Source: Gemmatimonadota bacterium
Lineage (GTDB): Bacteria; Latescibacterota; UBA2968
Assembly (NCBI GenBank): GCA_026705765.1
Contig: JAPPAB010000106.1
Coordinates: forward strand, 624 to 64,623
Reading direction: 5' to 3'
Length of the DNA stretch: 64,000 bases
A model generated the notes under the pieces. That model ran no database searches and had not been told where the DNA came from. It was given only the letters and a program-made list of their open reading frames with translations. Positions 41,810 through 60,856 of this stretch are shown piece after piece (positions within the stretch are counted from its first letter, which is position 1; each line of letters begins with the position of its first letter). The position numbers were made by a program, and so were the translations under genes.

Positions 41810-41846
41810 GGAACACCTCCCGATGGTAGTGGTTTGTAGCAATCCA

Positions 41847-43766
41847 TCAGTCTCCATCCCCCATCATCACCCAATCGTACATCTCCCCAGCCCGTTCGAC
41901 AGCGAGATCTACATCTTCGCGCAACATCAACCGCTCCCCCACCAGTTCCCGAGCGGCTCGCGCCACACAATCCAGATACGCTTCTCGACTACCATAGCGT
42001 TGAGCAATCGATAATCGCGAATCACCCTCGCGCGCATCCTCATCGCGCGCAAATGGCACCCACATCCCATCCAGGCCAACAAGCGCATCGGTCGCGCCGC
42101 GTTGTCGATACCGCCATCCCGTAAACGTACCCAGGGGTGCGACCACCTCGGGCATGCGAATACCCGCGACCTCATTGCCATCTCGATCAACCTGGGGCAC
42201 GCGCACCCCAAAAGGACGCCCTTTTTCAGGCGGCTCGATATCGATAATACCCGCATCCCACCTATCTCCCCAATTCAACCGCAAAGGTCTCCGCATGCGT
42301 CTGGGACTTGGCAAGTCGGGAATAGTGGGAAATTTCAAATCGTCTGCATCTACCAGAGAACCATCCGCAATGCGGCCATATCTGCTCTCGGGAGGATCAA
42401 CGCCCTCGCGCACCCAGCGGTCTAACGCAACGAGAAGGGCGCGCTCTGCATAGCGAAAATTCACGGGATTTGGGGGCACTGCTCGCCCCGGCTTTTTGGG
42501 CACATCGCCCGGACCGTGTTTTGTACTTGCAAAATGATAAACGCGAACCGAAGGATGAACCTCCACATCCTCTTGTCCGTTCACATCTGTGTGATTCAAA
42601 GACGCACCGCGATTCCAGTATTCGGTTGAAGTATTGGTATAAAAAATGCGAGGTGTCACCCCTGCGGCGTCACAGCGATCCAACAAACCGCTCTCTTCTC
42701 GCGTTTCCGTATCTATCTGCGGCAAATCCGTAAACGGAAACTGCTCCGTGGGATACAACGCATCAAAATGCGCGCTGGCATGCCGCGAAGGCTGTGCAAA
42801 CCGATGATTAAACGATCCCCGTGCGCCGCCCGCAACATTGGCAAATACCCCATCGAAAACCTTTCGGCCAGCCTCATCCCCATTAAAACCCTCATACAAC
42901 ATGTGTCGCAAGAAACGCCCACTTTGCGACGACCCAAAAGCATACGCCCGCTCAATCGCATTGCCCAGCGGATTGCCATCCATCCCGTACTTCAAAAACG
43001 ACACAAAATCCCGGGTTGCGGCAAAACCCGTTCCCATCACAGTTGGATTTTTGCCCGTATAAACCAGATTGTAAATGCGCCCCGGTTCAAATCCCTGCGG
43101 AAATCGGATCGCGGCACGCCCGTCTTCCAGCCGATCAAACGACCATTGATCGCGCCCAATTTCCTCGGCTTCATCATACGGATACGCCCGCACAGTGAGC
43201 ACCGCATCGCCATCTTCTACGGGTTCATAGGGATCGTGATAGCGACTCCCCAAAGAATGCAAATCCGTCTCTGCATCCACCACAACCTCACACGACACAG
43301 GACCCGTAACATCAACCACTGGCGCGTCCAAGGTCATCAAATTGGTAGCGCCTTCTGCTTCAGGCGGCACATCGGCCTGCCAACCACACGCGGCAATCGT
43401 ATAACCCTGTTGCATCAAAAAGCCATCGCCAAAATGTGCGGCAGTATCCGGCATATTCGATCCCGTTGACAGATTAAACATCGGCAAAATATTTTTGCGC
43501 CCCCGATTGACCACATTGTAAAACACAGTACTGTTGCCCCGGGCGACATCAACCGGCTTGAGCAAATGCACATCGGCTCGAAAAATCACCCGCCCGCTCT
43601 CGTCAACAGGCGCGAGATTTAAATCGATAATCGCCTCGTTTTGTTTGTGAGTGGGATCAAGCGCGAACCACGCACTGCCACACAGCGTTTCATAAGCGCC
43701 CACGGCACCGTACAATTTGCCATCAAGCACAGTTTCCCGAGCAGTAATTTCCAATTGCGTGAGCAT
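41847..43766 (-). CDS. Hypothetical 639-aa protein (possible alpha/beta-hydrolase-like)
   Basis: ORF with no diagnostic motif I can name confidently. Conserved-looking blocks VFYNVVNRGRKN and GWQADVPPE. Confidence 0.45.
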   Translation of the reverse strand: MLTQLEITARETVLDGKLYGAVGAYETLCGSAWFALDPTHKQNEAIIDLNLAPVDESGRVIFRADVHLLKPVDVARGNSTVFYNVVNRGRKNILPMFNLSTGSNMPDTAAHFGDGFLMQQGYTIAACGWQADVPPEAEGATNLMTLDAPVVDVTGPVSCEVVVDAETDLHSLGSRYHDPYEPVEDGDAVLTVRAYPYDEAEEIGRDQWSFDRLEDGRAAIRFPQGFEPGRIYNLVYTGKNPTVMGTGFAATRDFVSFLKYGMDGNPLGNAIERAYAFGSSQSGRFLRHMLYEGFNGDEAGRKVFDGVFANVAGGARGSFNHRFAQPSRHASAHFDALYPTEQFPFTDLPQIDTETREESGLLDRCDAAGVTPRIFYTNTSTEYWNRGASLNHTDVNGQEDVEVHPSVRVYHFASTKHGPGDVPKKPGRAVPPNPVNFRYAERALLVALDRWVREGVDPPESRYGRIADGSLVDADDLKFPTIPDLPSPRRMRRPLRLNWGDRWDAGIIDIEPPEKGRPFGVRVPQVDRDGNEVAGIRMPEVVAPLGTFTGWRYRQRGATDALVGLDGMWVPFARDEDAREGDSRLSIAQRYGSREAYLDCVARAARELVGERLMLREDVDLAVERAGEMYDWVMMGDGD

Positions 43767-43820
43767 TGACTCGCTCCAATTCTCAATAATTCTCTACCCG
43801 TTCCGATAAAAACCTACAAC

Positions 43821-44756
43821 CTAAAGCGCGGTGAGATCAAAGGGATTGGACCACGCCTTGTCGCCATTTGGTGCAATAATCTCAAAACGCACGTGTTTTG
43901 AACCGGGCCGCAGCGTAAATGTGGCGGTCTCAAACAGCTTACCACCCTCATGGTATTCGGTCCCCCTCGAATCTAATACCGCGGCAATGCGCTGTGCAGG
44001 TGAACATTTTACCGTGGCTTCAACCGCGCGGCCTTCCCCACCATGCAACTGAATATCAAAAATTTGTGGACCCGTTGACGCATAACCCGCGCCGGATTCC
44101 AGGGCTTCAACAATGGCTTCTGGCGACCGCTCCTTCACGCGCACCATTGTCCAGCCCTGATACGTATCGCGCGCTTCTGAATCAGCCGCGTGGGAATCGT
44201 CATTGCCCAGTGCCGGGAGCAATTGTCCGGACAAATCCATCCAATCGTCCCAGTGCACAGAAGACTCACCGCGTCCGGCGCACCGACAGGTCGTATTAAA
44301 AACCTCTATACCCGCCAAACCCGTCAACGGCATTGTATCGCGCAAAATATTGATCCCGCTCCAGTGCGGATGTGCGAGCCAGATTGAGCCACCCTGTTTT
44401 TTAACTTCATCAATCACATGTTGCGGGGGCATCGCCCGGGCATCCATATCCTCTGAAATATTGAGTGCCACAAAATGGTGGCGGTCCCCACCAAAGGGAT
44501 TATCGGGATGCAATTCAGCACCCTGGATAAGCGTAAAGTTTTCAGGACAGGTCAGTGTTTCGACAAATGTGATATTATTGTGATCGGATACACACAAATA
44601 ATCATAGCCCTGATTGACATACCCATCCACGCGTTCTTGTGGTGAGACCCGCCCATCCGAATTTGTCGAATGGCTGTGCAAATTGCCCTTCAGCCACATA
44701 TAACCATCGCCATCAGATAAAACAAACGGATTTACCAACCCTTTTTCTTCGGACAT
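43821..44756 (-). CDS. PHP-domain metal-dependent phosphoesterase (CehA/McbA-like)
   Basis: WLKGNLHSHSTNSDG and VSDHNNI motifs of the PHP fold. 311 aa. Confidence 0.7.
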   Translation of the reverse strand: MSEEKGLVNPFVLSDGDGYMWLKGNLHSHSTNSDGRVSPQERVDGYVNQGYDYLCVSDHNNITFVETLTCPENFTLIQGAELHPDNPFGGDRHHFVALNISEDMDARAMPPQHVIDEVKKQGGSIWLAHPHWSGINILRDTMPLTGLAGIEVFNTTCRCAGRGESSVHWDDWMDLSGQLLPALGNDDSHAADSEARDTYQGWTMVRVKERSPEAIVEALESGAGYASTGPQIFDIQLHGGEGRAVEATVKCSPAQRIAAVLDSRGTEYHEGGKLFETATFTLRPGSKHVRFEIIAPNGDKAWSNPFDLTAL

Positions 44757-44825
44757 AACAAACTCCTTTGAAAAGCGCGAATCAACGACGTAGTTTTTAG
44801 CAACTTTGGGTGGTTGGGCGGGGTT

Positions 44826-44860
44826 CGTCTATTCGTCTATTCGTCTATTCGTCTATTCGT
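44826..44860. repeat. Tandem 8-bp repeat (CGTCTATT x4) overlapping the 3-prime end of the amidohydrolase CDS
   Basis: ttcgtctattcgtctattcgtctattcgtctattcgtcc read directly. Confidence 0.6.
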
Positions 44861-45982
44861 CCACCAGACCTTCCCCGCCCGAACAGACGCACGACAAACC
44901 AACCGTTGCTCGCCCATCAACACCTGCTGCATTGCATCGGTCAACTCAAATTTACCCTTTTCCAACTCAAATACAGCGACATCGCCCGCAGCACCAACCC
45001 CCAGGTGTCCGAGATCATTCTCTCGATCAATCACCTGTGCAGGTTCAATGGTTGAGCGTTGAATCACTTCCTCGAGCGACATGCCCAAATTCAGAAACTT
45101 GGACATCGTCGTCGGCAAGTCGTAAACAGGACCATCGATATTGTACGAATGGATATCGCTGCTGATGGTATCGGGTGGAAAACCATCTTCCATAGCTGCG
45201 CGCCCCACGTCGTAACTAAAACTGCCCAACCCGTGTCCGATGTCAAAAATTACCCCGCGGTCTCGCGCATCCCACGCCTCAGAAATCACCTTTCCCCGGT
45301 TGTCGATAATCGACGCGGGTTGTGTACCGTGAAAACAATGGGTCACAATATCGCCCGGGCGCAGAGGCTGGAGCAGGTCGCGCAAAAGCACATCGGCATT
45401 GCTGATATGAACCATCAGGGGTTTTTCGCACCGATTGGCGGCTTCCAGGGCAATTTGCAACAAATCGCGCACATCCGCATCACCACCCACGCCTTTGTAC
45501 AAACGCACCTTAACGCCCAGGGCTGTTTTCGGGTGATTCAAAACCGTCTGCGCGCACTCACTGGCCGACACATAGCCTTCATACACCATCTCGCCGCGCC
45601 GCCAGGGCAAGCCGACACCCGATAGATTGACATAGGCCAAAATGCGCGTTGAAGACGGTTCCATTACATAGCGCTCCAATCCGCGATAATTAATCCAACC
45701 CGCCGTCCCCGTATCAACGCTCGTTGTCACGCCTGTGCGCGGACACAGGTCATCGGCCTCTATCCCAAAACTCGACACATCTTTGTACACATGGGTATGC
45801 AAATCAATCAGCCCCGGCATCACGAGACATCCGCTTGCATCAATTACTGAATCGGCCGCCCCCAAATCGCACCCAATAGCAGCTACTACGCCATCCTTCA
45901 AAGCCACATCCAACGCGTCATGCACGCCATTAGCCGGGTCTATCACCGTACCACCTGTTATCAACACATCGTATTGTTCAGC
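44837..45982 (-). CDS. Amidohydrolase-superfamily enzyme (dihydroorotase/deacetylase-like)
   Basis: Start at MAEQYDVLITGGTVIDP. LIDLHTHVY metal-binding HxH. Confidence 0.75.
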   Translation of the reverse strand, partial: AEQYDVLITGGTVIDPANGVHDALDVALKDGVVAAIGCDLGAADSVIDASGCLVMPGLIDLHTHVYKDVSSFGIEADDLCPRTGVTTSVDTGTAGWINYRGLERYVMEPSSTRILAYVNLSGVGLPWRRGEMVYEGYVSASECAQTVLNHPKTALGVKVRLYKGVGGDADVRDLLQIALEAANRCEKPLMVHISNADVLLRDLLQPLRPGDIVTHCFHGTQPASIIDNRGKVISEAWDARDRGVIFDIGHGLGSFSYDVGRAAMEDGFPPDTISSDIHSYNIDGPVYDLPTTMSKFLNLGMSLEEVIQRSTIEPAQVIDRENDLGHLGVGAAGDVAVFELEKGKFELTDAMQQVLMGEQRLVCRASVRAGKVWWTNRRIDE

Positions 45983-45993
45983 CATATCTATCC

Positions 45994-46992
45994 TCACGAT
46001 CGCTCCGCAATATAGGTTTCCGCATCGATTTTTCCCTCGGCAATCAATTCGCGGAACAGTGCCACAGTTTCCGCCACGCCTTCTGTCAGCGGCTTGTGCG
46101 CCACTTTGCCAATCGCAGCCTCTAACCCACTGCCATCGACTTCCTGGGGAAATGGCAACTGGATATCTTCAAACGTGACCTTATCCGCCGCCTCGGGTGC
46201 TGCCCGATCAATCGCATCCTTCACATCCTGCATATCGGGTGCAAATCCACCCAAATTAAACGCTCCGGCACCCGCGTAATCGGCTCGTGCAGCCTGAATA
46301 AACGCGCACGCCGTATCATCGGCATATTGAAAAACCGTGCGCCCGCCATAAGAAATGTGATAGGGCAAATTCGCCGCTGCTGCGAGCATAGCGGTCGTAG
46401 GCGTAGAAGTAATTCCCTGATCGCGCCCCACCCCATAGACTACATAGGGCCGAAAACCGATAGAAGACACACCCTCGTCGAGCCAATACACATGTGCGGT
46501 ACCCTCATTCGCCTGTTTGTACACGCCGTAATGCGTATGGGGCATCAGTGCGGAATCATCTCGCATCACAGCGCCCGGCTCGTAATCCTCAGGCGCGCCA
46601 AAAACCGCGACAGAACTCGCATAGACCACTTTGTCAATACGCTCCTGCCGGCGTTTCACAGCTTCAAAAACATTTGCAGTACCCACCACATTGACGCGCG
46701 CACCGAGCGGTGGATCGGCTTTGCAAAACGGCACTTGAAGCCCTGCCAGATGAATGACATGCGTAATCTCATTATCATCCAGCGCCTGTTCAAAATCGGG
46801 CAAATCCGCAATATCGCCCGCGACAAAGTTCACCTGAGCCAATTCGCCATCTGACAGCAACAATTGCAACCGCCGAGGCTCTGTCGCCAGATCGAATACC
46901 GTAACCGGCACCCCTTCGCGCACCAGATTGTACACAGTCCACGCGCCAATACACCCCAATGCACCCGTAACTAAAAAACGCTCGTCAGCCAT
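45994..46992 (-). CDS. NAD-dependent epimerase/dehydratase (SDR)
   Basis: FLVTGALGCIGAWTVYNL Rossmann motif. 332 aa. Confidence 0.75.
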   Translation of the reverse strand: MADERFLVTGALGCIGAWTVYNLVREGVPVTVFDLATEPRRLQLLLSDGELAQVNFVAGDIADLPDFEQALDDNEITHVIHLAGLQVPFCKADPPLGARVNVVGTANVFEAVKRRQERIDKVVYASSVAVFGAPEDYEPGAVMRDDSALMPHTHYGVYKQANEGTAHVYWLDEGVSSIGFRPYVVYGVGRDQGITSTPTTAMLAAAANLPYHISYGGRTVFQYADDTACAFIQAARADYAGAGAFNLGGFAPDMQDVKDAIDRAAPEAADKVTFEDIQLPFPQEVDGSGLEAAIGKVAHKPLTEGVAETVALFRELIAEGKIDAETYIAERS

Positions 46993-47066: not shown

Positions 47067-49511
47067 TTAGAACAACAAGACCGATACCGACTTCTGGATC
47101 ATGGCAATAGACACCGATGCCATGCCCACAAGCGCCATGCCCACAGAAAAGCCCACCATTAACACCGCTGCATAAATACGCCATTGTTGCTTGCCAAAAC
47201 GCTTCCAGAAATAATAGCGAGCAATCAACGCACCGATGATCTCGGTGATCATAAAATGTGGAATACTGGTCAAACTGCGTATATAACCAAAAATCAGCAA
47301 GATGGGTAATCCAAATATGGACAAAACAATGAAGAATACAAGTCCTATTGCAAATCCGGTGCCAATAACCCAGGGTTTTAGAGCCTCAAACAAAATGGGC
47401 TGATCATCTGACGACTGTAAAAATGCTCCGTCAAAAGAAGGCACCTGATCGATCTCGTATTGATAGAACAATTCTCGGTCCTGGGGATCCATCGCCCGGG
47501 AAATGATCATTTCTGGATTTGGCGTACCCAGATGCGCGCCATTGTTCGCACTGCGTATTTCTGGAGCAGAAGGCAACCCTTGTGCTAAAGCATCGGAAAT
47601 ATCGGGGGGCGCGCGACTCAGTGTTGCGGGCGAATATGGTGGGGATTGTGTATCATCAAAATTGGTGTAAAAATAAGCTGTGCTCGACCACGGCCCATAC
47701 CTGCGCTCGTCATCGGGTACACTATCCGGATCATCGGGTGTTGCCCGCACCCGCCAGTACCACCACGCATTATTCGACAAATTGGCTGGCGTCCACGTTA
47801 CGGTGCCCTCCTCGGAATAGTCAACTTCCCCACGCATGGTACTGGTAATCCACACACACCGCTGAAGGGCGTTCAACGGCCAGAACAATTGCACATATGG
47901 ATAGGCATCGGAAGGAATAGGCGCGAGTTTCCAGATGTAGGACCAGTACATAAAACTGGTCAGAAAAACCAGCGGCACCATAAAAATCTCAGCCTTCAAA
48001 ATGCTCGTAAATTTGGTACCAGTCAACTCGATCTCTCGGAAACGCTGCGCTGCTGCGCCATAGTTATCCAGACCAAAATCCACAAACCAGATCTCAATCC
48101 CCCGGAAACCACTGAGAAAAATGGTAGCTTGTTTAATGTACGGAATACTCACGTTTTGCCCCACCATACCATCTAAACGGGCATTGACAAATGAAATGAG
48201 AGGCGTATATACAAATGCAAAAATAAAGAAAAAGATCAGTAGAGTGACGGTGACCAGTTGCGGAAAAAGAATTTTTGACAGAACAATGGTGTACAAACTC
48301 GCTATACAAAACAACACCACGCAAATCCAAATCCTGAAATCCCCCCGCCCGGGCGGCGTTTCCCACGATCCCTTCTCGGTCTTTTCAATCCGCGCAGTTC
48401 GCACCCCGCGCCACACCTGATAAAATCCAATAACAGTAATGGCAAATGTAATACCAATGCCAAAGCTCATCCAGAAATCAATACCCGTCACAAAATGGGT
48501 CTGAATGGTGTCCATCCCCATAAACCAGTGCGGCATAAATCCATAATGGTGTAAAATGGGACTTGCAATTGTATGGATCATCACGCCTATAAAAGCCCCC
48601 ATCACGGCCCAGAATGGGGCGAGAAAACCCGCAAAAATGGGTCCCAGATGGAGGGTAAAGCCCAGTGGGGTTGCAGGTAAAAAATATCCCGTATATTGTG
48701 TGAAATCGACAAATGGAATCGGGATAAGCTGCACCGGTTGTTCCATAAACGCACCCGTAATGGCTGGTACAGCTACATAAAGCATCCCCCACACCAGGCC
48801 GATCACCGCCCCAACAGAAAACATGCGCCAGCGCCACGTAATATCCCCGCTGCTCTCTTCTGCCAATGCCATAGCCCCCTGTGCCGCGATAGGTGCAAAT
48901 GGAAATGGCAACTTCTCGTAATCGGACGTGATGCGGAACAACACATAACTGGCGGAAAACCAGGCAATGCGACCCATAATCGTGCCCAGTATCAGCAATG
49001 CTATGGGCCAAAACCAATCGGCGTGTAAAAACGTGCGCTCGATCAGCGCCTCGGAATTTGCCTTCGGCGCGTACCACCACAATTCGCCCAGTGCTTTTTG
49101 TATGCCAAATTGTACGGCTGCGGGCGACTGCACAAAATACTGATTCCACAATAGACCTTCAAAAGCATTGGACTCTCGATTGACCAGCGCAATCGTCACG
49201 TAATACAGCAGATAAATTTCCTGTCGCTTGAGTACAGTAAACGAGCGCTTTGCCAACTCGATAAACAAAATAATCGTGACCCACTGCGCCGCCGCGCCAA
49301 TGGAGCCACCGATCATCAGTTCCAGATAAATATTGCCTGGCACCATCACAATCGAGACAAATAACGCACCCACAATGGTCTTTGTATTAAAGCCATCGGC
49401 ATATTCGTCGGGCGTTTCGAGCAGATCGCGATACTCTTCAATCTCTTCAAACTGCGTATTTTTCTTTGGTGGTTTGTCTTTGTTGCGTCTTAAAAGATTG
49501 CCTAAAGCCAT
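47067..49511 (-). CDS. 814-aa polytopic membrane protein with a large extracytoplasmic insert; paralog-like to the 54043 ORF
   Basis: Many hydrophobic helices. Shares a motif region (EKLPFPFAPIAAQGA versus ERLVFPAMAPLIDM) with the 668-aa protein two genes upstream. Confidence 0.6.
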   Translation of the reverse strand: MALGNLLRRNKDKPPKKNTQFEEIEEYRDLLETPDEYADGFNTKTIVGALFVSIVMVPGNIYLELMIGGSIGAAAQWVTIILFIELAKRSFTVLKRQEIYLLYYVTIALVNRESNAFEGLLWNQYFVQSPAAVQFGIQKALGELWWYAPKANSEALIERTFLHADWFWPIALLILGTIMGRIAWFSASYVLFRITSDYEKLPFPFAPIAAQGAMALAEESSGDITWRWRMFSVGAVIGLVWGMLYVAVPAITGAFMEQPVQLIPIPFVDFTQYTGYFLPATPLGFTLHLGPIFAGFLAPFWAVMGAFIGVMIHTIASPILHHYGFMPHWFMGMDTIQTHFVTGIDFWMSFGIGITFAITVIGFYQVWRGVRTARIEKTEKGSWETPPGRGDFRIWICVVLFCIASLYTIVLSKILFPQLVTVTLLIFFFIFAFVYTPLISFVNARLDGMVGQNVSIPYIKQATIFLSGFRGIEIWFVDFGLDNYGAAAQRFREIELTGTKFTSILKAEIFMVPLVFLTSFMYWSYIWKLAPIPSDAYPYVQLFWPLNALQRCVWITSTMRGEVDYSEEGTVTWTPANLSNNAWWYWRVRATPDDPDSVPDDERRYGPWSSTAYFYTNFDDTQSPPYSPATLSRAPPDISDALAQGLPSAPEIRSANNGAHLGTPNPEMIISRAMDPQDRELFYQYEIDQVPSFDGAFLQSSDDQPILFEALKPWVIGTGFAIGLVFFIVLSIFGLPILLIFGYIRSLTSIPHFMITEIIGALIARYYFWKRFGKQQWRIYAAVLMVGFSVGMALVGMASVSIAMIQKSVSVLLF

Positions 49512-49532
49512 AGATTGTCCCGTGTATAGATA

Positions 49533-52500
49533 CTATGCGTTGGCCGCCGCTGTGGGAGCGGAGAGCAATTCCCGCCCTTTTTCCGTGTATTTGGTGCGAT
49601 TGGTTGGATCAACCGTCCGCCAGATCAAAAATTGTTTGCGAAGCGCGTTCATAAAGCCCTGATTGACCCTCCGCCACGATGCCGCATCACCCGAAAGCCG
49701 ATCTATTGTCAGCGTCATCGCAAAAATATTGTGCTCTCCCGTGGGCACGGCTTCAAAATGTACTTGCTGACTTACACCCAAATCATAAGGTGCCAACCAT
49801 ATCGTCGTATCAATCGTATATCCCGCGCCGGTTGCTGCTTCAATTGCACCAAACCGCGCACCATCTGTATAAAACGCACCCATGGACTCGCCCATGTGCG
49901 ACTCGAAATAATCGACCAGAAATACCGACAGCCCAAACACGTCTTTACCGCCCACTGTAAAGGGAAATTCAAAATGCCAGTGATCACCTTCCGGGTCGGG
50001 CAATTTCCAGCGACGCGTCACATCGGGCACGGCCATCATTGACGCCTGGCGCGCGGGATAGAGCGACGAAATTAAAACCACCACCATCACCAGTGCCGAA
50101 GAAATCACCGTTGACAATGCTGAATAATTCACATTAAGCCCTTGCAACCACCCCTGCCACAACAAAACTTTGATCACGCCTTGACCGAGCAAATACCCCG
50201 ATACAGTCCCCAAAACAGCATAAACACACGCCTCGGCAATAAACAAAAAGGCGATGTGTACAGGTGCCAACCCCACAGAAGAATAAATGCTAATTTCGCG
50301 AAAACGCTCGTACACCGATCCCATCATCGTATTCAACACAATCAGTGCAGCCACCAGGATGGGAACGAACAAATTGGCGAGGCCGGGCAATGGCCCCCAT
50401 CCCAGCGAACTGTAAATCGATACCTGGATTTTGCCATCTTCCCCAGGAATACCCGCGTACACCACGACCGACAACCGCGATACATATTTTTTGACCTGTT
50501 CTTCAACATTTACATCTTCGCGCAAACGAATCGCCACAGATTGTAGTGGGCTACCCACCTCTCGCAATATCTTATAGGGAATAATGGCAATATCGTCGGG
50601 ATCAATATGCTCGAATGGCATGTTCTCGAGTTGGGGTTGTTCCAGACCCTGTCTTTCGCGATTCTCCTGCTGGGTCATCTGAGAGATGATTTCATCATCC
50701 GTCAGCTTAAAATCTGCCGGACTCAACATCTCCCCGTCCAGATCCGGGTGATTGCGCATTTTTTCCGCGTCGATCAACCCCACGACTTTCAATTGTTTGC
50801 CAAATAAGCGCACGCTCTTTTTGCCGATATCTTCAGGCTCTACCTTGAGCAATCCGGCTATTTTGCCGGGCAAAATACACGCAAATTCGCCCTCTTCAAA
50901 CCAGCGTCCATGGCTCAACAGAGTATCGATCCTCGTAACCGCCGGCTCATTAACAGCCAATCCCAATATCCCCAGCACTTTAGTCGTTTTTTCAGGCGTC
51001 TCGATAGGCGTCTTTTTCAAGTCTCGCGTCACATACCAACTGCGCGGCGCAATATCACCCTGATCAAAAAAATTGACGCGGGCATAATCATAAGCCGTAT
51101 CCTCCAGCGGTCCCCAGAACTGGCTGCGGATTAACAGTCCTGGATATGTGCCTTCGGTATCATCCAGAGGAAGTTGATGAAAATCGAGCGTCGTCTTGAT
51201 TGACGTAAAGGACAACACCGTAAATGTCAACAAGACCAGCGTGGCAAATGTCAGGCTCGTGCGCATTTTGCGCTTTTTCATGTTCGCAATACCCAACTGA
51301 AATGCCGCCACCGATGCACTTATTCGCCCCACATCCGTATCGTGCAACAATACCTCTTCTGTGCGCAGTTGTCGGATATTTTCGTGAAACCGCCCCGACA
51401 CAATGGAAATCACAAAAATCGCCAGTGCAAAAATCACAAAAGCCAGCAAAATCACAAACGGATTGGAGAGATCAAAAGCGGGATGCACCTGCGAAAGCAC
51501 GATCCAGATCACCATAAAAACCGCGCCAAAACCGCTGATTTGCACCCGGATATCCGAAAAGGTAAAAAGCAATCGCTCGACAAAAAACGCGCACGGAATG
51601 ACCAGTATCATAAAGAAAATCACGCCGCGGATCACATCGTTTTGCGTTGATTTCACGTCTGGATAGGCGCGCGATTCGAGACCCATGCCCGCGCGCGTGT
51701 GTTTGACAAACAAATCCCATTTCTTGTCTTGCATCGCCTCTTCTGCCAGATCCAGATGGTGTTTGGCCTGCGTGTGCAAATTGGTCATCCGCTGATTCTC
51801 AATCGAATACTTCTCCAATTCGCGCATTCGCGCCTCGTTCAGCGTCCACATATCTTTTGCAGCCTGGTAAGAAGAGCGAATAAACGCCCCACCGTGTTGT
51901 AAAATCTGGAAGCCATCGCCGCGTGCGACTTCCACGCTTTCCGCACTCTTTGAGTTCAACAACAAGTAGCGCACGCCAATCTCCCGCTCCCGCATCACAA
52001 TTTTGACCCGTTCGCCCGGCGTAGTAAAAATGGTTCCCACCGGTTCTTCTGGACCAAAACCGATGGCATAGCCGTATTCCTGTGGCGCAGTATTGCCGGG
52101 ACCGAGCACGCTGATACTCGATAACTTGGTGAGATAACGCGGATCGACTGTTTCGTAAAAATCCGTTGCAATACACGGAAATAAAATCCGCGTACGCTTG
52201 GATATCCACCAGTCCATATTAAATTCGCCCCGGTATATGCGCGCCTGGCGACCGTGATTGGGCGCGTACGTAATTTCGCCGCTTTCTGGATCCATATAAA
52301 AAGCTTTCACATCCACGCGACGTTCGGCAATGCCCGGCATGTAAAATTCGCCATTTTCATCGGCAATGTCGTAATAGACGCGACGCACGCCTTTAATCGA
52401 TTTGTCATTGCCCATTCGCAGCGAAGCCACAGCTCCGGGACGGGGGCGATCAGGTGTAATGCTTAGCCGGGGAAATGTGCGCACAAAACCCTGCAACCCT

Positions 52501-54050
52501 CGCATGCGGTCGTCGGGATCCAGCTTGTAATCGGGCAAAAAATCCTCGGAATTTAACCCGAGATCGAGCACGCCAGCAAGCAGGCGTATCTGCCCGGTGA
52601 GATTTTCGAAATTCACATGCTCGGGTTTATCCAGTGGGGTATCCACTCTGAAACGCGCATCGTTGACCGTAATGAGCGACAGTGCAGGCGTCCCCGCTTC
52701 CAAAACGACCTCGCCATCTGTTTTCAGAATTTTGCCCGGGATATACATATCCCAGCTCATGCCGCCTTTTGGATTGATCCCATCGATGAGGGCATCGGCG
52801 GGGTCCAGATCAAATCGCTCGGCTATTGCCTTTGAATAATGTATAAACGACTTGCCAAATGGCGTGAAGAAACGCTTGTAATAATAATTGCGCGTGCTGT
52901 TCCAAACCCCGATTTCATCTGTCTGACTCGTCAAATCCAGAGAAATCAACAGTGGCAAATCGAGGGGTTCGGTCATCAACGCGGCAAAATGCTTTTCCTT
53001 GCGCGAATGCCTGCTCAAAAAATCGCAAATGCCCCTGAAGCCGAGATGGTGCCCGGAAGAAGCGAGAAACAAAAGCGTGTGTTTGGGCGGGTACTTGCTA
53101 AAATATTCAGCCAACTTCATCATGCCCACAATCCCACACGCCATCTCCGCACCCGGCGCAAGCGCAGGCACCACAGACATCGCATCGTAATACGTATTGA
53201 TCACCACGATTTTTTCGCTCAATACAGGATCGGTCCCGCGAATCCAGCCCAAAATATTCCGCGTCTCTTTCTTTTCCCAATCCATTCGCGCCTTCAAAGT
53301 GACATTGACCTCATCCTTTTGCGCGAGCAATGCCTTGAGTCTTTCGCCACTCTCCTTATCGATCCAAAATCGCTCAACACTATTGGGCACCTGCAAAAAT
53401 TTGGTCTCTGCCTGCGCGGTAAACGTGGAATCGGGTTCAACAAATATTATCTGCTGCGCGCCGAGCATGGCGGCATTGAGCCAGTTATTCCACGAATTAA
53501 ACTCCATCAACACCACCGCACCTTCTATATCGCGCCCATTAAATTCCGATACATCGCCAGTGCCACCCCACAAGAGATGCCCCCGCACGCCACCTGGGGG
53601 CAATGTGGTCGTCTTGACCAGATTGGGCCATAGACCGTGAATAGAAAAAACCTCGCCGGTATCTTCTACTTCTAAGCTGCCGCCCCGGTCTATGGGCACC
53701 GCCACGCCATACGTCTCGGCTTCGACGTCTTCTAATTCCAAACGCCGAAACTCGGATTCTATAAAATCCGCGGCTTTTTCATGGCCTTCATACCCCACTA
53801 CGCGCGAGTCGTAGCGCACAAACTGATCCATCAACGCGTGAATCCCATCTTCGCGCACAGCATCCAGAACCCGTGTGCCCACTTCTTCTGCCCGCGGAAC
53901 GGGTTCGGGGAGAACCTCGCCGGGCGTTTCCAATCCCAACAGAGTAGCTATATGGGGATTTACGCGATAGGGTCCCGCAATCAGAAGCGCAGTGACAAAA
54001 ATCCCCAGACCGATAAGGCTCCACGTGATGTGCTTGTAATATTTATCCAT
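49533..54050 (-). CDS. 1505-aa fusion: N-terminal TM anchor, PA plus M28-like zinc peptidase domain, then MacB/FtsX-type permease domain(s)
   Basis: LFLASSGHHLGFRG (M28-like). NMKKRKMRTSLTFATLVLLTFTVL (MacB/FtsX TM1 motif). MMGSVYERFREISIYSSVGLAP...FIAEACVYAVLG (FtsX core motif). Confidence 0.65.
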   Translation of the reverse strand: MDKYYKHITWSLIGLGIFVTALLIAGPYRVNPHIATLLGLETPGEVLPEPVPRAEEVGTRVLDAVREDGIHALMDQFVRYDSRVVGYEGHEKAADFIESEFRRLELEDVEAETYGVAVPIDRGGSLEVEDTGEVFSIHGLWPNLVKTTTLPPGGVRGHLLWGGTGDVSEFNGRDIEGAVVLMEFNSWNNWLNAAMLGAQQIIFVEPDSTFTAQAETKFLQVPNSVERFWIDKESGERLKALLAQKDEVNVTLKARMDWEKKETRNILGWIRGTDPVLSEKIVVINTYYDAMSVVPALAPGAEMACGIVGMMKLAEYFSKYPPKHTLLFLASSGHHLGFRGICDFLSRHSRKEKHFAALMTEPLDLPLLISLDLTSQTDEIGVWNSTRNYYYKRFFTPFGKSFIHYSKAIAERFDLDPADALIDGINPKGGMSWDMYIPGKILKTDGEVVLEAGTPALSLITVNDARFRVDTPLDKPEHVNFENLTGQIRLLAGVLDLGLNSEDFLPDYKLDPDDRMRGLQGFVRTFPRLSITPDRPRPGAVASLRMGNDKSIKGVRRVYYDIADENGEFYMPGIAERRVDVKAFYMDPESGEITYAPNHGRQARIYRGEFNMDWWISKRTRILFPCIATDFYETVDPRYLTKLSSISVLGPGNTAPQEYGYAIGFGPEEPVGTIFTTPGERVKIVMREREIGVRYLLLNSKSAESVEVARGDGFQILQHGGAFIRSSYQAAKDMWTLNEARMRELEKYSIENQRMTNLHTQAKHHLDLAEEAMQDKKWDLFVKHTRAGMGLESRAYPDVKSTQNDVIRGVIFFMILVIPCAFFVERLLFTFSDIRVQISGFGAVFMVIWIVLSQVHPAFDLSNPFVILLAFVIFALAIFVISIVSGRFHENIRQLRTEEVLLHDTDVGRISASVAAFQLGIANMKKRKMRTSLTFATLVLLTFTVLSFTSIKTTLDFHQLPLDDTEGTYPGLLIRSQFWGPLEDTAYDYARVNFFDQGDIAPRSWYVTRDLKKTPIETPEKTTKVLGILGLAVNEPAVTRIDTLLSHGRWFEEGEFACILPGKIAGLLKVEPEDIGKKSVRLFGKQLKVVGLIDAEKMRNHPDLDGEMLSPADFKLTDDEIISQMTQQENRERQGLEQPQLENMPFEHIDPDDIAIIPYKILREVGSPLQSVAIRLREDVNVEEQVKKYVSRLSVVVYAGIPGEDGKIQVSIYSSLGWGPLPGLANLFVPILVAALIVLNTMMGSVYERFREISIYSSVGLAPVHIAFLFIAEACVYAVLGTVSGYLLGQGVIKVLLWQGWLQGLNVNYSALSTVISSALVMVVVLISSLYPARQASMMAVPDVTRRWKLPDPEGDHWHFEFPFTVGGKDVFGLSVFLVDYFESHMGESMGAFYTDGARFGAIEAATGAGYTIDTTIWLAPYDLGVSQQVHFEAVPTGEHNIFAMTLTIDRLSGDAASWRRVNQGFMNALRKQFLIWRTVDPTNRTKYTEKGRELLSAPTAAANA

Positions 54051-56049
54051 AGCGATGTACCCAATGCCCGCGTTCAGGGAACCAGATTATGTCGATACCC
54101 ACTGACAAAGCCACACCGAGAATATATCCGACGAGCAAACCGATGAACAGGGGTCTCGATTTGCGATAAACCGTTGGACCGCCTACTTTTATGATCACAA
54201 ACTTAATCAACCATGCAAGAAAAGTCGTAAAACTGCTGCGCCGGACCAGATAAGAACCCGAAATCGCCAGACCCACGGGATGCAGCGGCCACCACGCAAA
54301 GCGATAGCGCATATAAATCAACCCGGCCATCATCAGACCGCCAATGCCAAAAAATACCGCTTGTTCGGGATTATCCTCATAAAATGGCGGCTCATCGGGT
54401 TTTTTGATCGCATCGACCGTACCCTGGAAATGGCGTTCGGCTGCCCGCGTAATCTCCCAACTGTTGAAATTATAAGCCCCCTGATCGTAACCCAACCACA
54501 CGGTGAATAACATATTGAACAGCAAGCTGACAATAAACACCAGTCCAAGCGCGCCCATCAGCCGCCGCCGCTGATTGCCGGGAACGCCCTCGGAGACGCG
54601 TCCTGCATGGGAAAGCGCGGGCAAAAACAACCCCTTGAAATGCCCGGTAATCAAACCCGAATAGCGGTAAGCGACAATGGTGGCAAGCGGGATATTGCGC
54701 CGTCCAAAAAATGGTGCCACCATACTCCAGGGTCCTATCGGTGTATTGGTAAATGGCATGCCGGTATCCGCCAGGATCTTCGCCATACCCGTATAGACAA
54801 AAATTACGGCGAGGAGCAGCAAAAATCCTTGCAGCGGATCGAAATTCATCTGTGTCAGCCAGATAAACAAATATGCCATGCTGCACAGCAGACCGATACA
54901 AGCAGCGCGATAAGACATCAATTCCCCAGAGTCATCCACTGTGGGATCTCTCCCAAGTGCCTTCATCAACACATCTCTCAAATGTCTTCTCGCAACCCAG
55001 AAGGTCGAACACACAAAAACAATAAATGCGCCCGCAGTCTGCCAGTAATACACCCCCGTGCGATAATAAGGCGTGGTGGCTTTATAGCCCCACTTGCTGA
55101 GCTGACCGCCCTCAAAGATGAACAACAAATCAAAAAACCAGATTGAAAACAGAACATCCAGGCTGGCAAAATAAGAAAAAAGTATAGTAAAAATGCCAAA
55201 ATATCCCCTGATAGGCGGCAATTGGCGATCAATCCAGTACCAGCGCGACCGGTAAATGGGAAAACGCGGAAAACCCGGTACAAAGTAATTGATACAATTC
55301 CAGGCCAGCACGCCAAACGCAATGGCAAACCCGATCCAGAACAAACGATTGCGCATAAACCCGGGCAACCATCCCTCGCCATCGCCCGGTTCAGAAACCA
55401 TATCGATCAACGGCGCCATCGCGGGAAAAACCAGGCGTTCGTTTTGTACCCACTGTTTTCTCAAAACAGTAGCTACACAGGCCAGCATTAAAAAAGCTGC
55501 CGCCACAACCGTCGTCCACCAGAACAGGGGCAATACCCAAACATCCCAGGGGATAGTAGCACCACTCGGCAAGCCTTCGTAAAACCACGCAACGGCATTC
55601 CCCTTGTGACTCGGCAACAGCCAGTTGGGCAAAAGCGGGTGCAGGTGTTCAGCCCACTGATTTTCTTCCGTAGCAAAATAATAAGGCGCCGTGATATAGC
55701 CGATCAAATATCCCGTCAGGCCAAAACACGGCAGTGCCGCGCCCACGAGGCCCATCGCCAGAATCGCATGCCACTCGCCTGGTGAAAGTGTCCAGCCGGT
55801 CACCCTTGCAACAATCGCGAGTCCGATCATCAGAATCATCAACACGATCAGCATGGCCATTGGAATGTGGCTATACGTCATCAGCGGAGCGTGCAAGATG
55901 TAGCGCACACAAATAGCCAGCAGATCCAGGGCGACGACCAGAAATAGCCCCAATCCCACGGCGCGCAATGTTACTGCGGGTTGTGAACTCGCATCATCTG
56001 CTTCCGTCTGAATATTTTGCGTATCAAGAGCCATTGGCGCAGTTTTCAC
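54043..56049 (-). CDS. 668-aa polytopic membrane protein (first gene of the three-gene membrane operon)
   Basis: About 14+ hydrophobic segments. 8-nt overlap with the downstream M28-FtsX gene. Confidence 0.6.
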   Translation of the reverse strand: MKTAPMALDTQNIQTEADDASSQPAVTLRAVGLGLFLVVALDLLAICVRYILHAPLMTYSHIPMAMLIVLMILMIGLAIVARVTGWTLSPGEWHAILAMGLVGAALPCFGLTGYLIGYITAPYYFATEENQWAEHLHPLLPNWLLPSHKGNAVAWFYEGLPSGATIPWDVWVLPLFWWTTVVAAAFLMLACVATVLRKQWVQNERLVFPAMAPLIDMVSEPGDGEGWLPGFMRNRLFWIGFAIAFGVLAWNCINYFVPGFPRFPIYRSRWYWIDRQLPPIRGYFGIFTILFSYFASLDVLFSIWFFDLLFIFEGGQLSKWGYKATTPYYRTGVYYWQTAGAFIVFVCSTFWVARRHLRDVLMKALGRDPTVDDSGELMSYRAACIGLLCSMAYLFIWLTQMNFDPLQGFLLLLAVIFVYTGMAKILADTGMPFTNTPIGPWSMVAPFFGRRNIPLATIVAYRYSGLITGHFKGLFLPALSHAGRVSEGVPGNQRRRLMGALGLVFIVSLLFNMLFTVWLGYDQGAYNFNSWEITRAAERHFQGTVDAIKKPDEPPFYEDNPEQAVFFGIGGLMMAGLIYMRYRFAWWPLHPVGLAISGSYLVRRSSFTTFLAWLIKFVIIKVGGPTVYRKSRPLFIGLLVGYILGVALSVGIDIIWFPERGHWVHRYG

Positions 56050-56375: not shown

Positions 56376-56420
56376 AAAAAGGGTGTGAACTTTCAGTGTT
56401 CACACCCTTTTTATTTTTTG
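56376..56420. terminator. Bidirectional rho-independent terminator
   Basis: AAAAAA-GGGTGTGAAC-tttcagt-GTTCACACCC-TTTTTATTTTTT. Serves tRNA-Phe on the plus strand and the FGE gene on the minus strand. Confidence 0.65.
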
Positions 56421-60780: not shown

Positions 60781-60856
60781 AATTTGCCCAAAATCCCGTA
60801 ACTGATTGCAGGAGAGTATGTTTTTAAAAAATGCCCAAAAATGGACATGCGAAAAA

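What the first reader, a model, noticed from the sequence alone, without database searches (positions are those of the whole stretch)
47067..56049. Three-gene operon of giant membrane proteins with an M28 peptidase-FtsX/MacB permease fusion at its centre
Genes of 668, 1505 and 814 aa (minus strand) overlap or abut (8-nt overlap; 21-bp gap). The central protein has a TM anchor, a PA/M28-like zinc peptidase region (LFLASSGHHLGFRG) and unmistakable MacB/FtsX permease motifs (KRKMRTSLTFATLVLL; MMGSVYERFREISIYSSVGLAP). No ABC ATPase gene is present in the operon. The flanking 668- and 814-aa proteins share a motif (E[RK]L.FP.A.PI) and look like paralogs. A mechanotransmission-type FtsX module coupled to an extracytoplasmic peptidase and two paralogous polytopic partners is not a described system.
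Basis: partly seen in the sequence, partly recalled or inferred. Interest (0 to 1): 0.55.

Follow-up and report, generated by a model that had tools for sequence, protein, structure and literature searches.

The report
Peptidase-like membrane motor with peptide permeases
Three real, co-transcribed membrane genes of an uncultured Latescibacterota bacterium encode an ABC-type "mechanical" membrane protein fused to a peptidase-shaped outer head that lacks the normal catalytic residues, flanked by two distant relatives of oligopeptide (OPT) permeases; this gene combination is conserved across the phylum and I found no description of it.

Summary
Three minus-strand ORFs of 668, 1505 and 814 aa sit at the stated coordinates, with an 8-nt overlap and a 21-bp gap.

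The central fusion is not a chimera. Full-length homologues (45-95% identity) occur in at least 393 places in species-representative genomes, almost all labelled Latescibacterota, often with two or more copies per genome.

The interpretation needs four corrections.
1. The "M28 peptidase" has the PA/M28 fold. However, every canonical zinc or catalytic position that could be aligned is replaced by other, near-invariant residues (Y287, E302, H334, H335, A465). It is not a classical aminopeptidase.
2. The flanking proteins are not orphans. The 814-aa protein is a divergent OPT-superfamily permease. The 668-aa protein (DUF6785+DUF6784) is its remote homologue (hhalign 97%).
3. The ATPase is missing only locally. 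One orthologous LolD/MacB/FtsE-type ATPase lies on the same strand within 10 kb of the fusion gene in 18 of 82 related loci. In the most distant clade it is in the operon.
4. Relatives add a PqqD-family peptide-binding protein.

Best reading: an ATP-driven type VII ABC mechanotransmitter with a tethered peptide-capturing head that works with OPT-like permeases. It is a new variant of a known kind. The parts are well supported; the mechanism is inferred.

The parts
54043..56049 (-). g1: polytopic membrane protein of 668 aa (probably 663 aa, starting at ATG 56034). It carries Pfam DUF6785 + DUF6784 and is a remote OPT-superfamily homologue.
   Evidence: Pfam DUF6785 E 6e-101 and DUF6784 E 7e-22. 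hhalign against the g3 family gives 97% probability and E 7e-11 over 441 columns. About 10 hydrophobic segments. Directly upstream of g2 in 51 of 83 g2 copies in 82 related loci, including one copy in L048 that has g1-like genes on both sides.
49533..54050 (-). g2: 1505-aa, 8-TM fusion protein. It combines a PA/M28-like ectodomain, three extra TM helices, a complete MacB/FtsX unit and a C-terminal cytoplasmic domain.
53973..54029 (-). g2 aa 8-26: N-terminal membrane anchor, N-terminus inside.
   Evidence: Hydropathy. The Lys residues before the helix are visible in the sequence.
52611..53879 (-). g2 aa ~58-480: PA-domain-containing M28-fold ectodomain with a non-canonical, conserved site (Y287 Y288 D289, E302, H334 H335, D372, A465).
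   Evidence: Profile versus PDB: 2ek8 E 1.7e-13, 6hc6 E 6e-10. AF2 model pLDDT 81.6, pTM 0.83. Foldseek: 2ek8 E 5.5e-23, BSAP, TfR1, PaAP, GCPII. Residue tally over 80 homologues.
51636..52610 (-). g2 aa 481-805: beta-rich ectodomain followed by a three-helix stalk that leads into the membrane.
   Evidence: Secondary structure of the AF2 model. No family assigned.
51399..51635 (-). g2 aa 806-884: three extra TM helices with invariant polar residues (E825 R826, H856 P857).
   Evidence: Hydropathy. Invariant columns.
50037..51338 (-). g2 aa 905-1338: complete type VII ABC (MacB/FtsX) membrane unit. It comprises an N-terminal amphipathic helix, TM1, a periplasmic core domain (aa ~952-1220), TM2, the coupling helix ERFREISIYSSVGLAP, and TM3-4.
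   Evidence: Pfam FtsX E 4.5e-14. PDB MacB 5lil E 2e-7, with the profile 3e-10. Foldseek: MacB 5gko E 1.2e-7 and MacB periplasmic domain 5c59/5lj8. MacB_PCD Pfam in homologues.
49536..50033 (-). g2 aa 1340-1505: conserved cytoplasmic C-terminal domain (beta-alpha-beta4-alpha-alpha). It is tentatively START/Bet v1 (SRPBCC)-like.
   Evidence: pLDDT 70-90 in the model. Many weak Foldseek hits to START/PYL/Bet v1 folds, E 2e-3 to 3e-2, with the query range not reported. No Pfam hit. Many invariant residues.
47067..49511 (-). g3: 814-aa divergent OPT-superfamily permease.
   Evidence: No direct Pfam, NCBIfam or PDB hit. The exhaustive search found 952 relatives, and 21 of 52 sampled family members hit Pfam OPT, best E 5e-18. 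One close homologue is named OPT/YSL by NCBI. Directly downstream of g2 in 51 of 83 g2 copies.
47412..47834 (-). g3 aa ~560-700: non-membrane insertion that is absent from the ~630-aa core family.
   Evidence: Relatives of ~630 aa match g3 up to about aa 560 in their best stretch and have a second matched stretch whose position is not reported. No strongly hydrophobic segment lies between aa 521 and 722. One homologue (P0261) carries an FGE-sulfatase domain at its aa 567-647, and single other family members carry WD40 or PDZ domains whose positions were not determined.
56376..56412 (.). 15-bp-stem palindromic hairpin flanked by A/T runs. It looks like a bidirectional terminator between the FGE-sulfatase-like gene and g1, and so marks the upstream limit of the operon.
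   Evidence: Conserved in L012.
40838..46992 (-). Co-directional downstream genes, possibly in the same transcript: SDR epimerase/dehydratase, amidohydrolase/deacetylase, PHP CehA/McbA-type metallohydrolase, Abhydrolase_10 and Zn-ADH.
   Evidence: Pfam and NCBIfam. Gaps or overlaps of -11 to +80 bp. No strong terminator after g3. Synteny with g3 is kept, in part or in full, in loci whose g2 is 65-95% identical.

Best explanation
The locus encodes a peptide-handling envelope machine built on a type VII ABC (MacB/FtsX-type) mechanotransmitter.

Shown:
- g2 is an 8-TM protein.
- Its C-terminal half is a complete MacB-like membrane unit with a periplasmic core domain and a conserved coupling helix.
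- Its N-terminal half is a ~780-aa periplasmic head with the PA/M28 aminopeptidase fold. The canonical di-zinc and catalytic residues of that head are replaced by a different, near-invariant set of residues.
- g1 and g3 are two remotely related permeases of the OPT (oligopeptide transporter) superfamily.
- At least one of these permeases accompanies g2 in nearly every related locus.

Inferred:
- A LolD/MacB-class ATPase, encoded outside this window but beside the locus in relatives, binds the coupling helices of a g2 dimer.
- ATP binding and hydrolysis are transmitted across the membrane to move the periplasmic core domain and the attached M28-like head.
- The head acts mainly as a capture or unloading module for peptides or peptide-like compounds, or as a non-canonical hydrolase acting on them.
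- The OPT-like permeases then carry the released substrate into the cell, where the downstream hydrolases and dehydrogenases may process it.
For: - Identity of the g2 parts.
- Conservation and paralogy of the fusion.
- Non-canonical site: Y287 80/80, E302 78/80, H334 80/80, H335 74/80, D372 78/80, A465 75/80, aligned to the HxD, GAxD and EE motifs of 2ek8 and 6hc6.
- OPT membership of the g3 family, and g1-g3 homology.
- Synteny over 83 g2 copies in 82 loci: g1-g2-g3 in 34, g2-g3 in 17, g1-g2 in 15. In the ~70% clade g1 lies 0.7-8 kb upstream, with TPR genes in between where checked (L014).
- ATPase: an orthologous (57-96% identical) LolD/MacB/FtsE-class ATPase lies on the same strand within 10 kb in 18 of 82 loci. 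No FtsX permease gene was seen next to it in L012 or L001. The order is g2-g3-(PqqD)-small FtsX-ATPase in L058, L061 and L079.
- Peptide theme: the M28/PA fold, OPT permeases, PqqD-family genes conserved after g3 in two distant clades, and TPR genes.
- Precedent for a type VII ABC transporter working with a periplasmic hydrolase: YbbAP-TesA (PMC12646458).
Against: - No ATPase gene lies in this operon or in the 64-kb window, so energisation of this particular copy is inferred.
- No substrate, direction of transport or physical g2-OPT contact is shown. Adjacency is the only link.
- DUF6785 genes also occur without g2.
- The downstream enzymes are conserved only within the orthologous clades and give no clear substrate.
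- PqqD proteins are best known from peptide maturation, which fits export as well as import.
- The TM part of the g2 model has low confidence (pLDDT 67).
- The last two M28 ligand positions (D372, A465) are assigned from motif and secondary-structure position, not from a printed alignment.
Confidence: 0.4

Rival explanations
1. Envelope extractor/hydrolase of the YbbAP-TesA or FtsEX type. g2 uses ATP-driven mechanotransmission to extract a hydrophobic or envelope-bound molecule from the inner membrane, or to act on wall or surface proteins. It presents that molecule to its own fused head, which is a true enzyme with a non-canonical metal site (Tyr/Glu/His/His/Asp). The OPT-like permeases merely recycle the soluble products.
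For: The closest characterised systems pair type VII ABC units with periplasmic hydrolases (FtsEX papers listed). The substituted site is as strictly conserved as an active site. The C-terminal cytoplasmic domain has weak START/Bet v1 (lipid-binding fold) matches. Three extra TM helices carry invariant polar residues.
Against: The general-base Glu of M28 enzymes is His in 80 of 80 homologues and the last His ligand is Ala, and I know of no M28 enzyme with this set. The START-like assignment is weak and has no sequence support. This reading does not explain why one or two OPT-like genes are so tightly and variably coupled to g2.
Confidence: 0.2
2. Peptide natural-product (RiPP-like) maturation and export or immunity system. 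A PqqD-type recognition protein holds a precursor peptide. The MacB-type ABC unit exports it or removes it from the membrane. The M28-like head trims or binds it outside the cell. The OPT-like proteins act as exporters or in re-uptake.
For: PqqD-family genes sit directly after g3 in the ~55% clade and in the distant L058 and L079 loci. The neighbouring ATPase scores nearly as well against darobactin and bacteriocin exporter ATPase models as against LolD. MacB-type pumps export peptides in other bacteria (established knowledge, reviewed in PMC5985334, listed).
Against: No precursor peptide gene, radical-SAM enzyme, cyclase or other maturase was seen in the window or in the loci examined. The window locus has no PqqD gene. 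Characterised OPT-family members are importers (PMC12831333 abstract).
Confidence: 0.12
3. Metal-chelate (for example ferric) acquisition. The Tyr-Tyr/Glu/His/Asp site of the head binds a metal or metallophore. ATP-driven movement releases it to YSL-like OPT permeases for import.
For: The OPT superfamily includes the YSL metal-chelate transporters. The replaced ligands (adjacent tyrosines, Glu, His, Asp) resemble ferric-ion binding sites, which is my own recollection of FbpA and transferrin and was not tested. A PvdO-like FGE-sulfatase-family gene lies just upstream in this clade.
Against: This is purely analogical. The PvdO-like gene scores below its family cut-off (183.6 bits against 500), is separated from g1 by a terminator-like hairpin, and was found only in the 92-94%-identical loci (L003-L008, L010, L012). 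No Fur box, TonB receptor or siderophore genes were looked for or seen.
Confidence: 0.08
4. The three genes are functionally unrelated neighbours, or the 1505-aa ORF is an assembly or annotation artefact.
For: DUF6785 genes can occur without g2.
Against: The full-length fusion is conserved at 45-95% identity in at least 393 places in species-representative genomes, with hundreds of invariant residues across both halves. An OPT-like gene lies directly next to 67 of the 83 g2 copies. In 9 further loci (the ~70% clade) a g1-like gene lies 0.7-8 kb upstream on the same strand, and two of the remaining cases (L031, L056) have g3 directly downstream.
Confidence: 0.02

Closest known systems
YbbAP-TesA (E. 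coli type VII ABC transporter-hydrolase complex; PMC12646458)
   Same: A MacB/FtsX-type membrane unit driven by a LolD-like ATPase, combined with a periplasmic hydrolase-fold module. Long-range mechanotransmission is the proposed mechanism.
   Different: Here the hydrolase-fold module is fused covalently to the N-terminus through an extra four TM helices. It has the PA/M28 fold rather than the fold of TesA and lacks the canonical catalytic residues. OPT-like permeases are the conserved partners. The ATPase is not in this operon.
MacB (MacAB-TolC) and LolCDE
   Same: Best sequence and fold matches for g2 aa ~905-1338: four TM helices, a periplasmic core domain, the coupling helix and an N-terminal amphipathic helix. 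The neighbouring ATPases in relatives score best against the LolD, MacB and FtsE models.
   Different: g2 has no fused nucleotide-binding domain. It carries a 900-aa N-terminal extension and a 165-aa C-terminal domain. No conserved MacA or TolC partner is present. A short HlyD-like gene lies 1.3 kb upstream, beyond a terminator-like hairpin, and was found only in the 92-94%-identical loci.
FtsEX with EnvC, PcsB, CwlO or RipC
   Same: An ABC-type mechanotransmitter that controls an extracytoplasmic hydrolase-related module rather than transporting a substrate across the membrane.
   Different: The FtsX periplasmic domain and its partners are different. No cell-division context is present. There are several paralogous copies per genome. 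The head is fused rather than recruited.
PA-domain M28 aminopeptidases (Aneurinibacillus AM-1 2ek8, B. subtilis BSAP/YwaD 6hc6) and their non-catalytic relatives (transferrin receptor, nicalin)
   Same: The same fold, including the PA insertion (Foldseek E 5.5e-23 to 1e-20; profile E 1.7e-13). Like the transferrin receptor and nicalin, g2 has lost the canonical zinc site.
   Different: The replacement residues are themselves near-invariant across the family, which argues for a retained but different function of the pocket. The domain is also membrane-tethered on an ABC unit.
OPT/YSL transporter family (Pfam PF03169)
   Same: g3 is homologous to proteins that hit the OPT model over its full length. 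g1 is a more remote relative that shares the E[RK]L.FP region.
   Different: Neither g1 nor g3 reaches the Pfam OPT threshold itself. g1 is filed as DUF6785/DUF6784. g3 has a ~140-aa insertion. No OPT protein is known (to me or in the searched literature) to work with an ABC-type partner.

Membership tests
Type VII ABC transporter membrane subunit (FtsX/MacB-like) | FtsX-type four-helix TM domain (Pfam PF02687) | tested here: met
   PF02687 E 4.5e-14, 53 bits against a cut-off of 25.5, aa 1228-1337. MacB 5lil E 2.2e-7.
Type VII ABC transporter membrane subunit (FtsX/MacB-like) | Large extracytoplasmic domain between TM1 and TM2 with the MacB periplasmic-core fold | tested here: met
   Foldseek hits to MacB periplasmic domains 5c59 and 5lj8 (E 8e-6 to 1e-4) and to full MacB 5gko (E 1.2e-7). 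Homologues carry the precomputed Pfam MacB_PCD.
Type VII ABC transporter membrane subunit (FtsX/MacB-like) | Cytoplasmic coupling helix after TM2 (ER.REI...G motif) | tested here: met
   YERFREISIYSSVGLAP aligns to the SVTERTKEIGVRMAIGA motif of MacB and is invariant in the family.
Type VII ABC transporter membrane subunit (FtsX/MacB-like) | Dedicated LolD/MacB/FtsE-class ABC ATPase partner | tested here: inconclusive
   Absent from the operon and from the whole 64-kb window. An orthologous ATPase (57-96% identical) lies within 10 kb in 18 of 82 related loci and is in the operon in L058, L061 and L079. The rest of this genome could not be searched.
M28 metallopeptidase (Pfam PF04389) | M28 alpha/beta fold, here with a PA-domain insertion | tested here: met
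   Foldseek: 2ek8 E 5.5e-23, 6hc6 E 9e-22. Profile versus PDB: E 1.7e-13. More distant family members carry the precomputed PF04389. The window protein itself does not reach Pfam M28.
M28 metallopeptidase (Pfam PF04389) | Co-catalytic zinc ligands His, Asp, Glu, Asp, His and the general-base Glu | tested here: not met
   Aligned positions are Y287 (His), E302 (Asp), H334 (catalytic Glu) and H335 (Glu). D372 (Asp kept) and A465 (His) are assigned from motif and secondary structure. These residues are near-invariant in 80 homologues, and none has the canonical set.
OPT oligopeptide transporter family (Pfam PF03169 / TC 2.A.67) | Significant match to the OPT profile over most of its length | tested here: inconclusive
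   g3 and g1 have no direct OPT hit. g3 relatives at E 1e-43 to 1e-63 hit OPT above the gathering score over model positions ~24-620 of 623, and 21 of 52 sampled members hit it. g1 versus the g3 family: hhalign 97%, E 7e-11.
OPT oligopeptide transporter family (Pfam PF03169 / TC 2.A.67) | Proton-coupled uptake of oligopeptides, glutathione or metal chelates | not testable with these tools
   A functional property with no experimental data for any bacterial relative found here.
Tripartite MacAB-TolC-type efflux pump | Conserved adjacent membrane-fusion (HlyD/MacA) partner | tested here: not met
   A 242-aa HlyD/RND_mfp gene lies at 57306-58034. It is separated from g1 by another gene and a terminator-like hairpin and was found only in the 92-94%-identical loci (L003-L005, L007, L008, L010, L012).
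Tripartite MacAB-TolC-type efflux pump | Outer-membrane TolC-family exit duct | not tested
   No OEP/TolC scan of the window or the related loci was made.

The most novel reading that the evidence does not exclude
A hybrid primary/secondary uptake machine: an ATP-driven type VII ABC mechanotransmitter moves a tethered, catalytically rewired M28/PA receptor head that captures peptides (or peptide-like or metal-chelate ligands) and hands them to physically associated OPT-superfamily permeases. This would be the first case of an ABC 'motor' servicing a secondary transporter, and the first assigned role for DUF6785/DUF6784 and for bacterial OPT-like proteins.
Probability: 0.25. Interest if true: 0.75.

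Novelty: new variant of a known kind. Interest (0 to 1): 0.5.

Why it matters
Type VII ABC systems (MacB, LolCDE, FtsEX, YbbAP) are a small set of machines that do mechanical work in the bacterial envelope, and each new partner has revealed a new function. This family adds three things:
- a covalently fused peptidase-fold head with a rewired, strictly conserved pocket;
- a consistent genetic partnership with OPT-superfamily permeases, a transporter class with essentially no functional or structural data in bacteria;
- a cytoplasmic C-terminal domain with no sequence family.

The family is present in two or more copies per genome across Latescibacterota, a widespread uncultured phylum thought to live on complex organic matter (PMC4454575). 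It is therefore likely to be a major, unrecognised nutrient or envelope system of that phylum. It also gives a testable handle on DUF6785/DUF6784.

Tried and rejected
- **Assembly chimera:** rejected, because the full-length fusion is conserved in hundreds of genomes.
- **Pairwise BLAST of g1 against g3:** not significant (E 0.35). Homology appeared only with profiles.
- **Direct searches of g1 and g3:** Pfam, NCBIfam and PDB sequence searches gave nothing beyond the DUFs. The g3 family profile against PDB gave no hit.
- **ABC ATPase in the window:** none found. tblastn of the L012 ATPase against the window also found nothing.
- **C-terminal domain of g2 against Pfam at E up to 10:** nothing meaningful. 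The START-like idea therefore rests only on weak Foldseek hits.
- **Literature:** 'DUF6785/DUF6784' gave 0 papers. Combinations of Latescibacteria, FtsX, OPT, M28 and type VII ABC found no description of this system.
- **MacAB-TolC-like efflux pump using the upstream HlyD gene:** considered and rejected as a general explanation, because that gene was found only in the closest clade.
- **Downstream enzymes as a clue to the substrate:** NCBIfam names are too generic.
- **PqqD or p336 partners in the window:** absent.
- **Model coordinates:** not available to scripts, so the geometry of the substituted site could not be inspected.

Full report
**Observation**

The three minus-strand ORFs exist exactly as described: 54043-56049 (668 aa), 49533-54050 (1505 aa) and 47067-49511 (814 aa). 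They have an 8-nt overlap and a 21-bp gap, and the quoted peptide motifs are in the 1505-aa translation. I call them g1, g2 and g3.

The closest g1 homologue (91% identical) is 663 aa long, so g1 probably starts at the ATG five codons downstream (nt 56034).

A perfect 15-bp-stem hairpin with flanking A/T runs at 56376-56412 separates the upstream FGE-sulfatase-like gene from g1. No comparable terminator follows g3. Five further co-directional genes follow with gaps or overlaps of -11 to +80 bp. The transcription unit therefore starts at g1 and may extend beyond g3.

The best matches of all three proteins are metagenome-assembled genomes that are almost all labelled Latescibacterota, at up to 95-97% identity.

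**The central protein (g2)**

*Membrane unit.* Pfam sees only FtsX, at aa 1228-1337. PDB sequence searches add MacB (5lil, E 2e-7) and the PA-domain aminopeptidase YwaD (6hc6, E 2e-3). A profile of 16 homologues raises these to 3e-10 for MacB and 1.7e-13 for aminopeptidase 2ek8.

*Topology.* Hydropathy gives eight TM segments:
- an N-terminal anchor (aa 8-26);
- a ~780-aa external region;
- three TM helices (aa 806-884);
- a cytoplasmic linker with the typical MacB/LolC N-terminal amphipathic helix (…IANMKKRKMRTSLT…);
- TM1 of the FtsX unit;
- a ~270-aa external domain;
- TM2, the coupling helix ERFREISIYSSVGLAP, then TM3 and TM4;
- a 165-aa cytoplasmic tail domain.

*Ectodomain model.* An AlphaFold2 model of aa 31-810 is confident (pLDDT 81.6, pTM 0.83). 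It matches PA-containing M28 enzymes and their non-catalytic relatives: 2ek8 at E 5.5e-23, then BSAP, the transferrin receptor, PaAP and GCPII. After the M28/PA part come a beta-rich domain and a three-helix stalk.

*C-terminal half model.* The model of aa 796-1505 is weaker in the membrane part (pLDDT 66.9) but confident in the soluble domains. It matches MacB, the pneumococcal Spr0694-0695-type transporter and isolated MacB periplasmic domains. A long tail of weak hits (E 2e-3 to 3e-2) to START/Bet v1/PYL folds probably reflects the C-terminal domain. Its predicted beta-alpha-beta4-alpha-alpha order fits a helix-grip fold, but it has no Pfam match. I treat this assignment as tentative.

**Not a chimera, but not a classical peptidase**

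Full-length homologues (1480-1610 aa, 45-95% identity) are abundant: 478 in the word-indexed search, and at least 393 confirmed places in one-genome-per-species contigs. Individual genomes often hold two or more copies. For example, four hits (P0027, P0057, P0074, P0081) have longest contigs of the same length, 8,082,295 bases. Hundreds of columns are invariant across both halves.

The alignment to 2ek8 and 6hc6 places family residues at the M28 signature positions as follows:

| M28 signature | Canonical residue | Residue in this family |
|---|---|---|
| HxD | His ligand | Y287 (with Y288 and D289 following) |
| GAxD | Bridging Asp | E302 |
| EE | Catalytic Glu, then Glu ligand | H334, then H335 |

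From motif and secondary-structure position, the fourth ligand Asp is kept (D372) and the fifth (His) is A465.

Across 80 homologues the counts are Y287 80/80, Y288 80/80, D289 80/80, E302 78/80, H334 80/80, H335 74/80, D372 78/80 and A465 75/80. No member has the canonical set. The pocket is therefore conserved but rewired. 'M28 peptidase' is right for the fold and wrong, or at least unproven, for the chemistry.

**The flanking proteins**

g1 is Pfam DUF6785 + DUF6784 (E 6e-101 and 7e-22).

g3 has no direct family or PDB hit. The exhaustive HMMER search nevertheless finds 952 relatives. Many are ~630-aa proteins whose best matched stretch covers g3 up to about aa 560. Of 52 sampled family members, 21 hit Pfam OPT, with a best E of 5e-18 and near-full model coverage. 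NCBI names one close homologue 'OPT/YSL family transporter'.

g3 carries a ~140-aa non-membrane insertion (aa ~560-700). One homologue (P0261) has an FGE-sulfatase domain at the corresponding place, and single other family members carry WD40 or PDZ domains whose positions I did not determine.

g1 and g3 are not detectably similar by BLAST (E 0.35). The two are therefore remote homologues within the OPT superfamily rather than close paralogues.

**Synteny**

I examined 82 related loci containing 83 g2 copies.

| Arrangement around g2 | g2 copies |
|---|---|
| g1 directly upstream and g3 directly downstream | 34 |
| g3 only (one of these is cut at the contig end upstream) | 17 |
| g1 only (one of these is cut at the contig end downstream) | 15 |
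| g1-like genes on both sides (L048) | 1 |
| Neither directly adjacent, but g1 0.7-8 kb upstream on the same strand (~70% clade) | 9 |
| No partner detected (L077, L078) | 2 |
| Truncated by contig ends | 5 |

In the ~70% clade, TPR genes lie between g1 and g2 in L014, the one locus where I checked. Two of the five truncated loci (L031, L056) have g3 directly downstream.

DUF6785 genes also occur without g2, for example as a tandem pair beside a Peptidase_M14 gene. The OPT-like proteins are thus a general transporter family, of which particular members partner g2.

**The ATPase question**

The 64-kb window has no ABC ATPase. In 18 of 82 loci, however, an ABC ATPase lies on the same strand within 10 kb. 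These ATPases are orthologous to one another: 80-96% identical among Latescibacterota clades and 57% to the most distant clade. They score best against the LolD, DarD, YbbA, DevA, MacB and FtsE models, which is the type VII class.

In L012 (g2 92% identical to the window) the ATPase sits 6 kb upstream of g1. No FtsX permease gene lies next to it there. In the window the corresponding region differs and contains an integrase-AAA fusion, a YdjM gene and a Gp49-like gene.

In the most distant clade the operon order is g2, g3, (p311), (PqqD), small FtsX, ATPase (L058, L061 and L079). The small FtsX protein there has four TM helices and no periplasmic domain.

Taken with the invariant coupling helix, this makes an ATP-driven mechanism the most likely one for the window copy too, using an ATPase encoded elsewhere in the genome. 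That last step is inferred.

**Further partners**

A PqqD-family protein (Pfam above the gathering score) and a ~310-340-aa protein of unknown family follow g3 throughout the ~55% clade and in L058. L079 has the PqqD gene but not the second protein. The window locus lacks both.

The downstream epimerase, amidohydrolase, PHP-hydrolase, Abhydrolase_10 and ADH genes keep their linkage to g3, in part or in full, across loci whose g2 is 65-95% identical. Their family names are too generic to name a substrate.

**Mechanism**

Shown: the domain identities, the topology logic, the rewired pocket, the OPT relationship, the synteny, and the class and orthology of the neighbouring ATPase.

Inferred: a g2 dimer (or, in the distant clade, g2 plus the small FtsX protein) is driven by the LolD-like ATPase. 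Mechanotransmission moves the MacB-like periplasmic domain and the tethered M28/PA head. The head captures, unloads or non-canonically processes peptide-like ligands. The OPT-like permeases move these ligands across the membrane.

The common thread among the components is peptide handling: an aminopeptidase fold, OPT permeases, PqqD and TPR proteins. I give this reading 0.4.

Rivals:
- a YbbAP-TesA/FtsEX-like extractor-hydrolase, with the OPT proteins only recycling products (0.2);
- peptide natural-product maturation or export (0.12);
- metal-chelate acquisition (0.08);
- unrelated neighbours or an artefact (0.02).

**Comparison with known systems**

The closest characterised system is YbbAP-TesA, a type VII ABC transporter that presents membrane-extracted substrates to a periplasmic hydrolase (PMC12646458). 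MacB, LolCDE and FtsEX-EnvC follow.

The differences here are:
- the covalent fusion through four extra TM helices;
- a PA/M28 head with non-canonical residues;
- the OPT-like partners;
- a novel cytoplasmic tail domain;
- an unlinked ATPase at this locus.

Literature searches for DUF6785/DUF6784 and for combinations of the component names found no description of this combination.

**Verdict**

The system is real, conserved and phylum-wide. It is a new variant of the type VII ABC mechanotransmission theme with an unexpected OPT partnership.

The core claim of an undescribed conserved module stands. Interest 0.5.

Noticed in passing
window 56376-56412: Perfect 15-bp-stem palindrome (AAAAAGGGTGTGAAC...GTTCACACCCTTTTT) with A/T runs on both sides, between the FGE-sulfatase-like gene and g1. 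It looks like a bidirectional intrinsic terminator and is 97% conserved in locus L012.
   Followed up: partly
window 56430-57260 (-): FGE-sulfatase-family protein most similar to PvdO (dihydropyoverdine dehydrogenase) but well below that family's cut-off (183.6 bits against 500). It is conserved just upstream of g1 in the 92-94%-identical loci. One g3 homologue (P0261) carries an FGE-sulfatase domain at the place corresponding to the g3 insertion.
   Followed up: partly
window 57306-58034 (-): Short (242 aa) HlyD/RND membrane-fusion-protein homologue with no pump gene beside it. It is conserved upstream of the locus only in the closest clade. It could be a MacA-like adaptor for g2, or a remnant.
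   Followed up: partly
window 58031-63426 (-): Apparent mobile or defence island: a YdjM membrane protein, a 519-aa fusion of a tyrosine recombinase (Phage_integrase) with an AAA_16/NACHT-like NTPase, a Gp49-like toxin gene (61462-61836) with an abutting ORF whose end overlaps its start (61139-61465), and a 439-aa ORF with no family. This region replaces the segment that carries the ABC ATPase in sister locus L012.
   Followed up: partly
window 35723-40816 (-): 1697-aa protein combining Upf1-like helicase domains (AAA_11/AAA_12) with a C-terminal MTES_1575/DUF559 restriction-endonuclease-like domain. It is a possible defence or repair nuclease-helicase.
   Followed up: no
L023 17315-19042 (and the ~66% clade loci): Bacterial microcompartment shell genes (a protein with two matched BMC stretches and one with four) lie shortly downstream of the g3 orthologue in L023 (294-bp gap), followed by PHP-hydrolase and ADH genes. 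A microcompartment-linked catabolic pathway may sit next to this transport locus in some Latescibacterota.
   Followed up: no
L002 17254-18616; L058 16435-17786; L079 16361-16708: A PqqD-family gene follows g3 in two very distant clades. It is paired with a ~310-340-aa protein of unknown family containing several Cys residues in L002 and L058, but not in L079. These genes are probably further components of the system that the window locus lacks.
   Followed up: partly
L083 10001-14077: Two tandem 667-aa DUF6785/DUF6784 genes occur without any FtsX fusion, beside Peptidase_M14 and AP_endonuc_2 genes. An AP_endonuc_2 gene also neighbours the lone ABC ATPase in L001 and L012.
   Followed up: no
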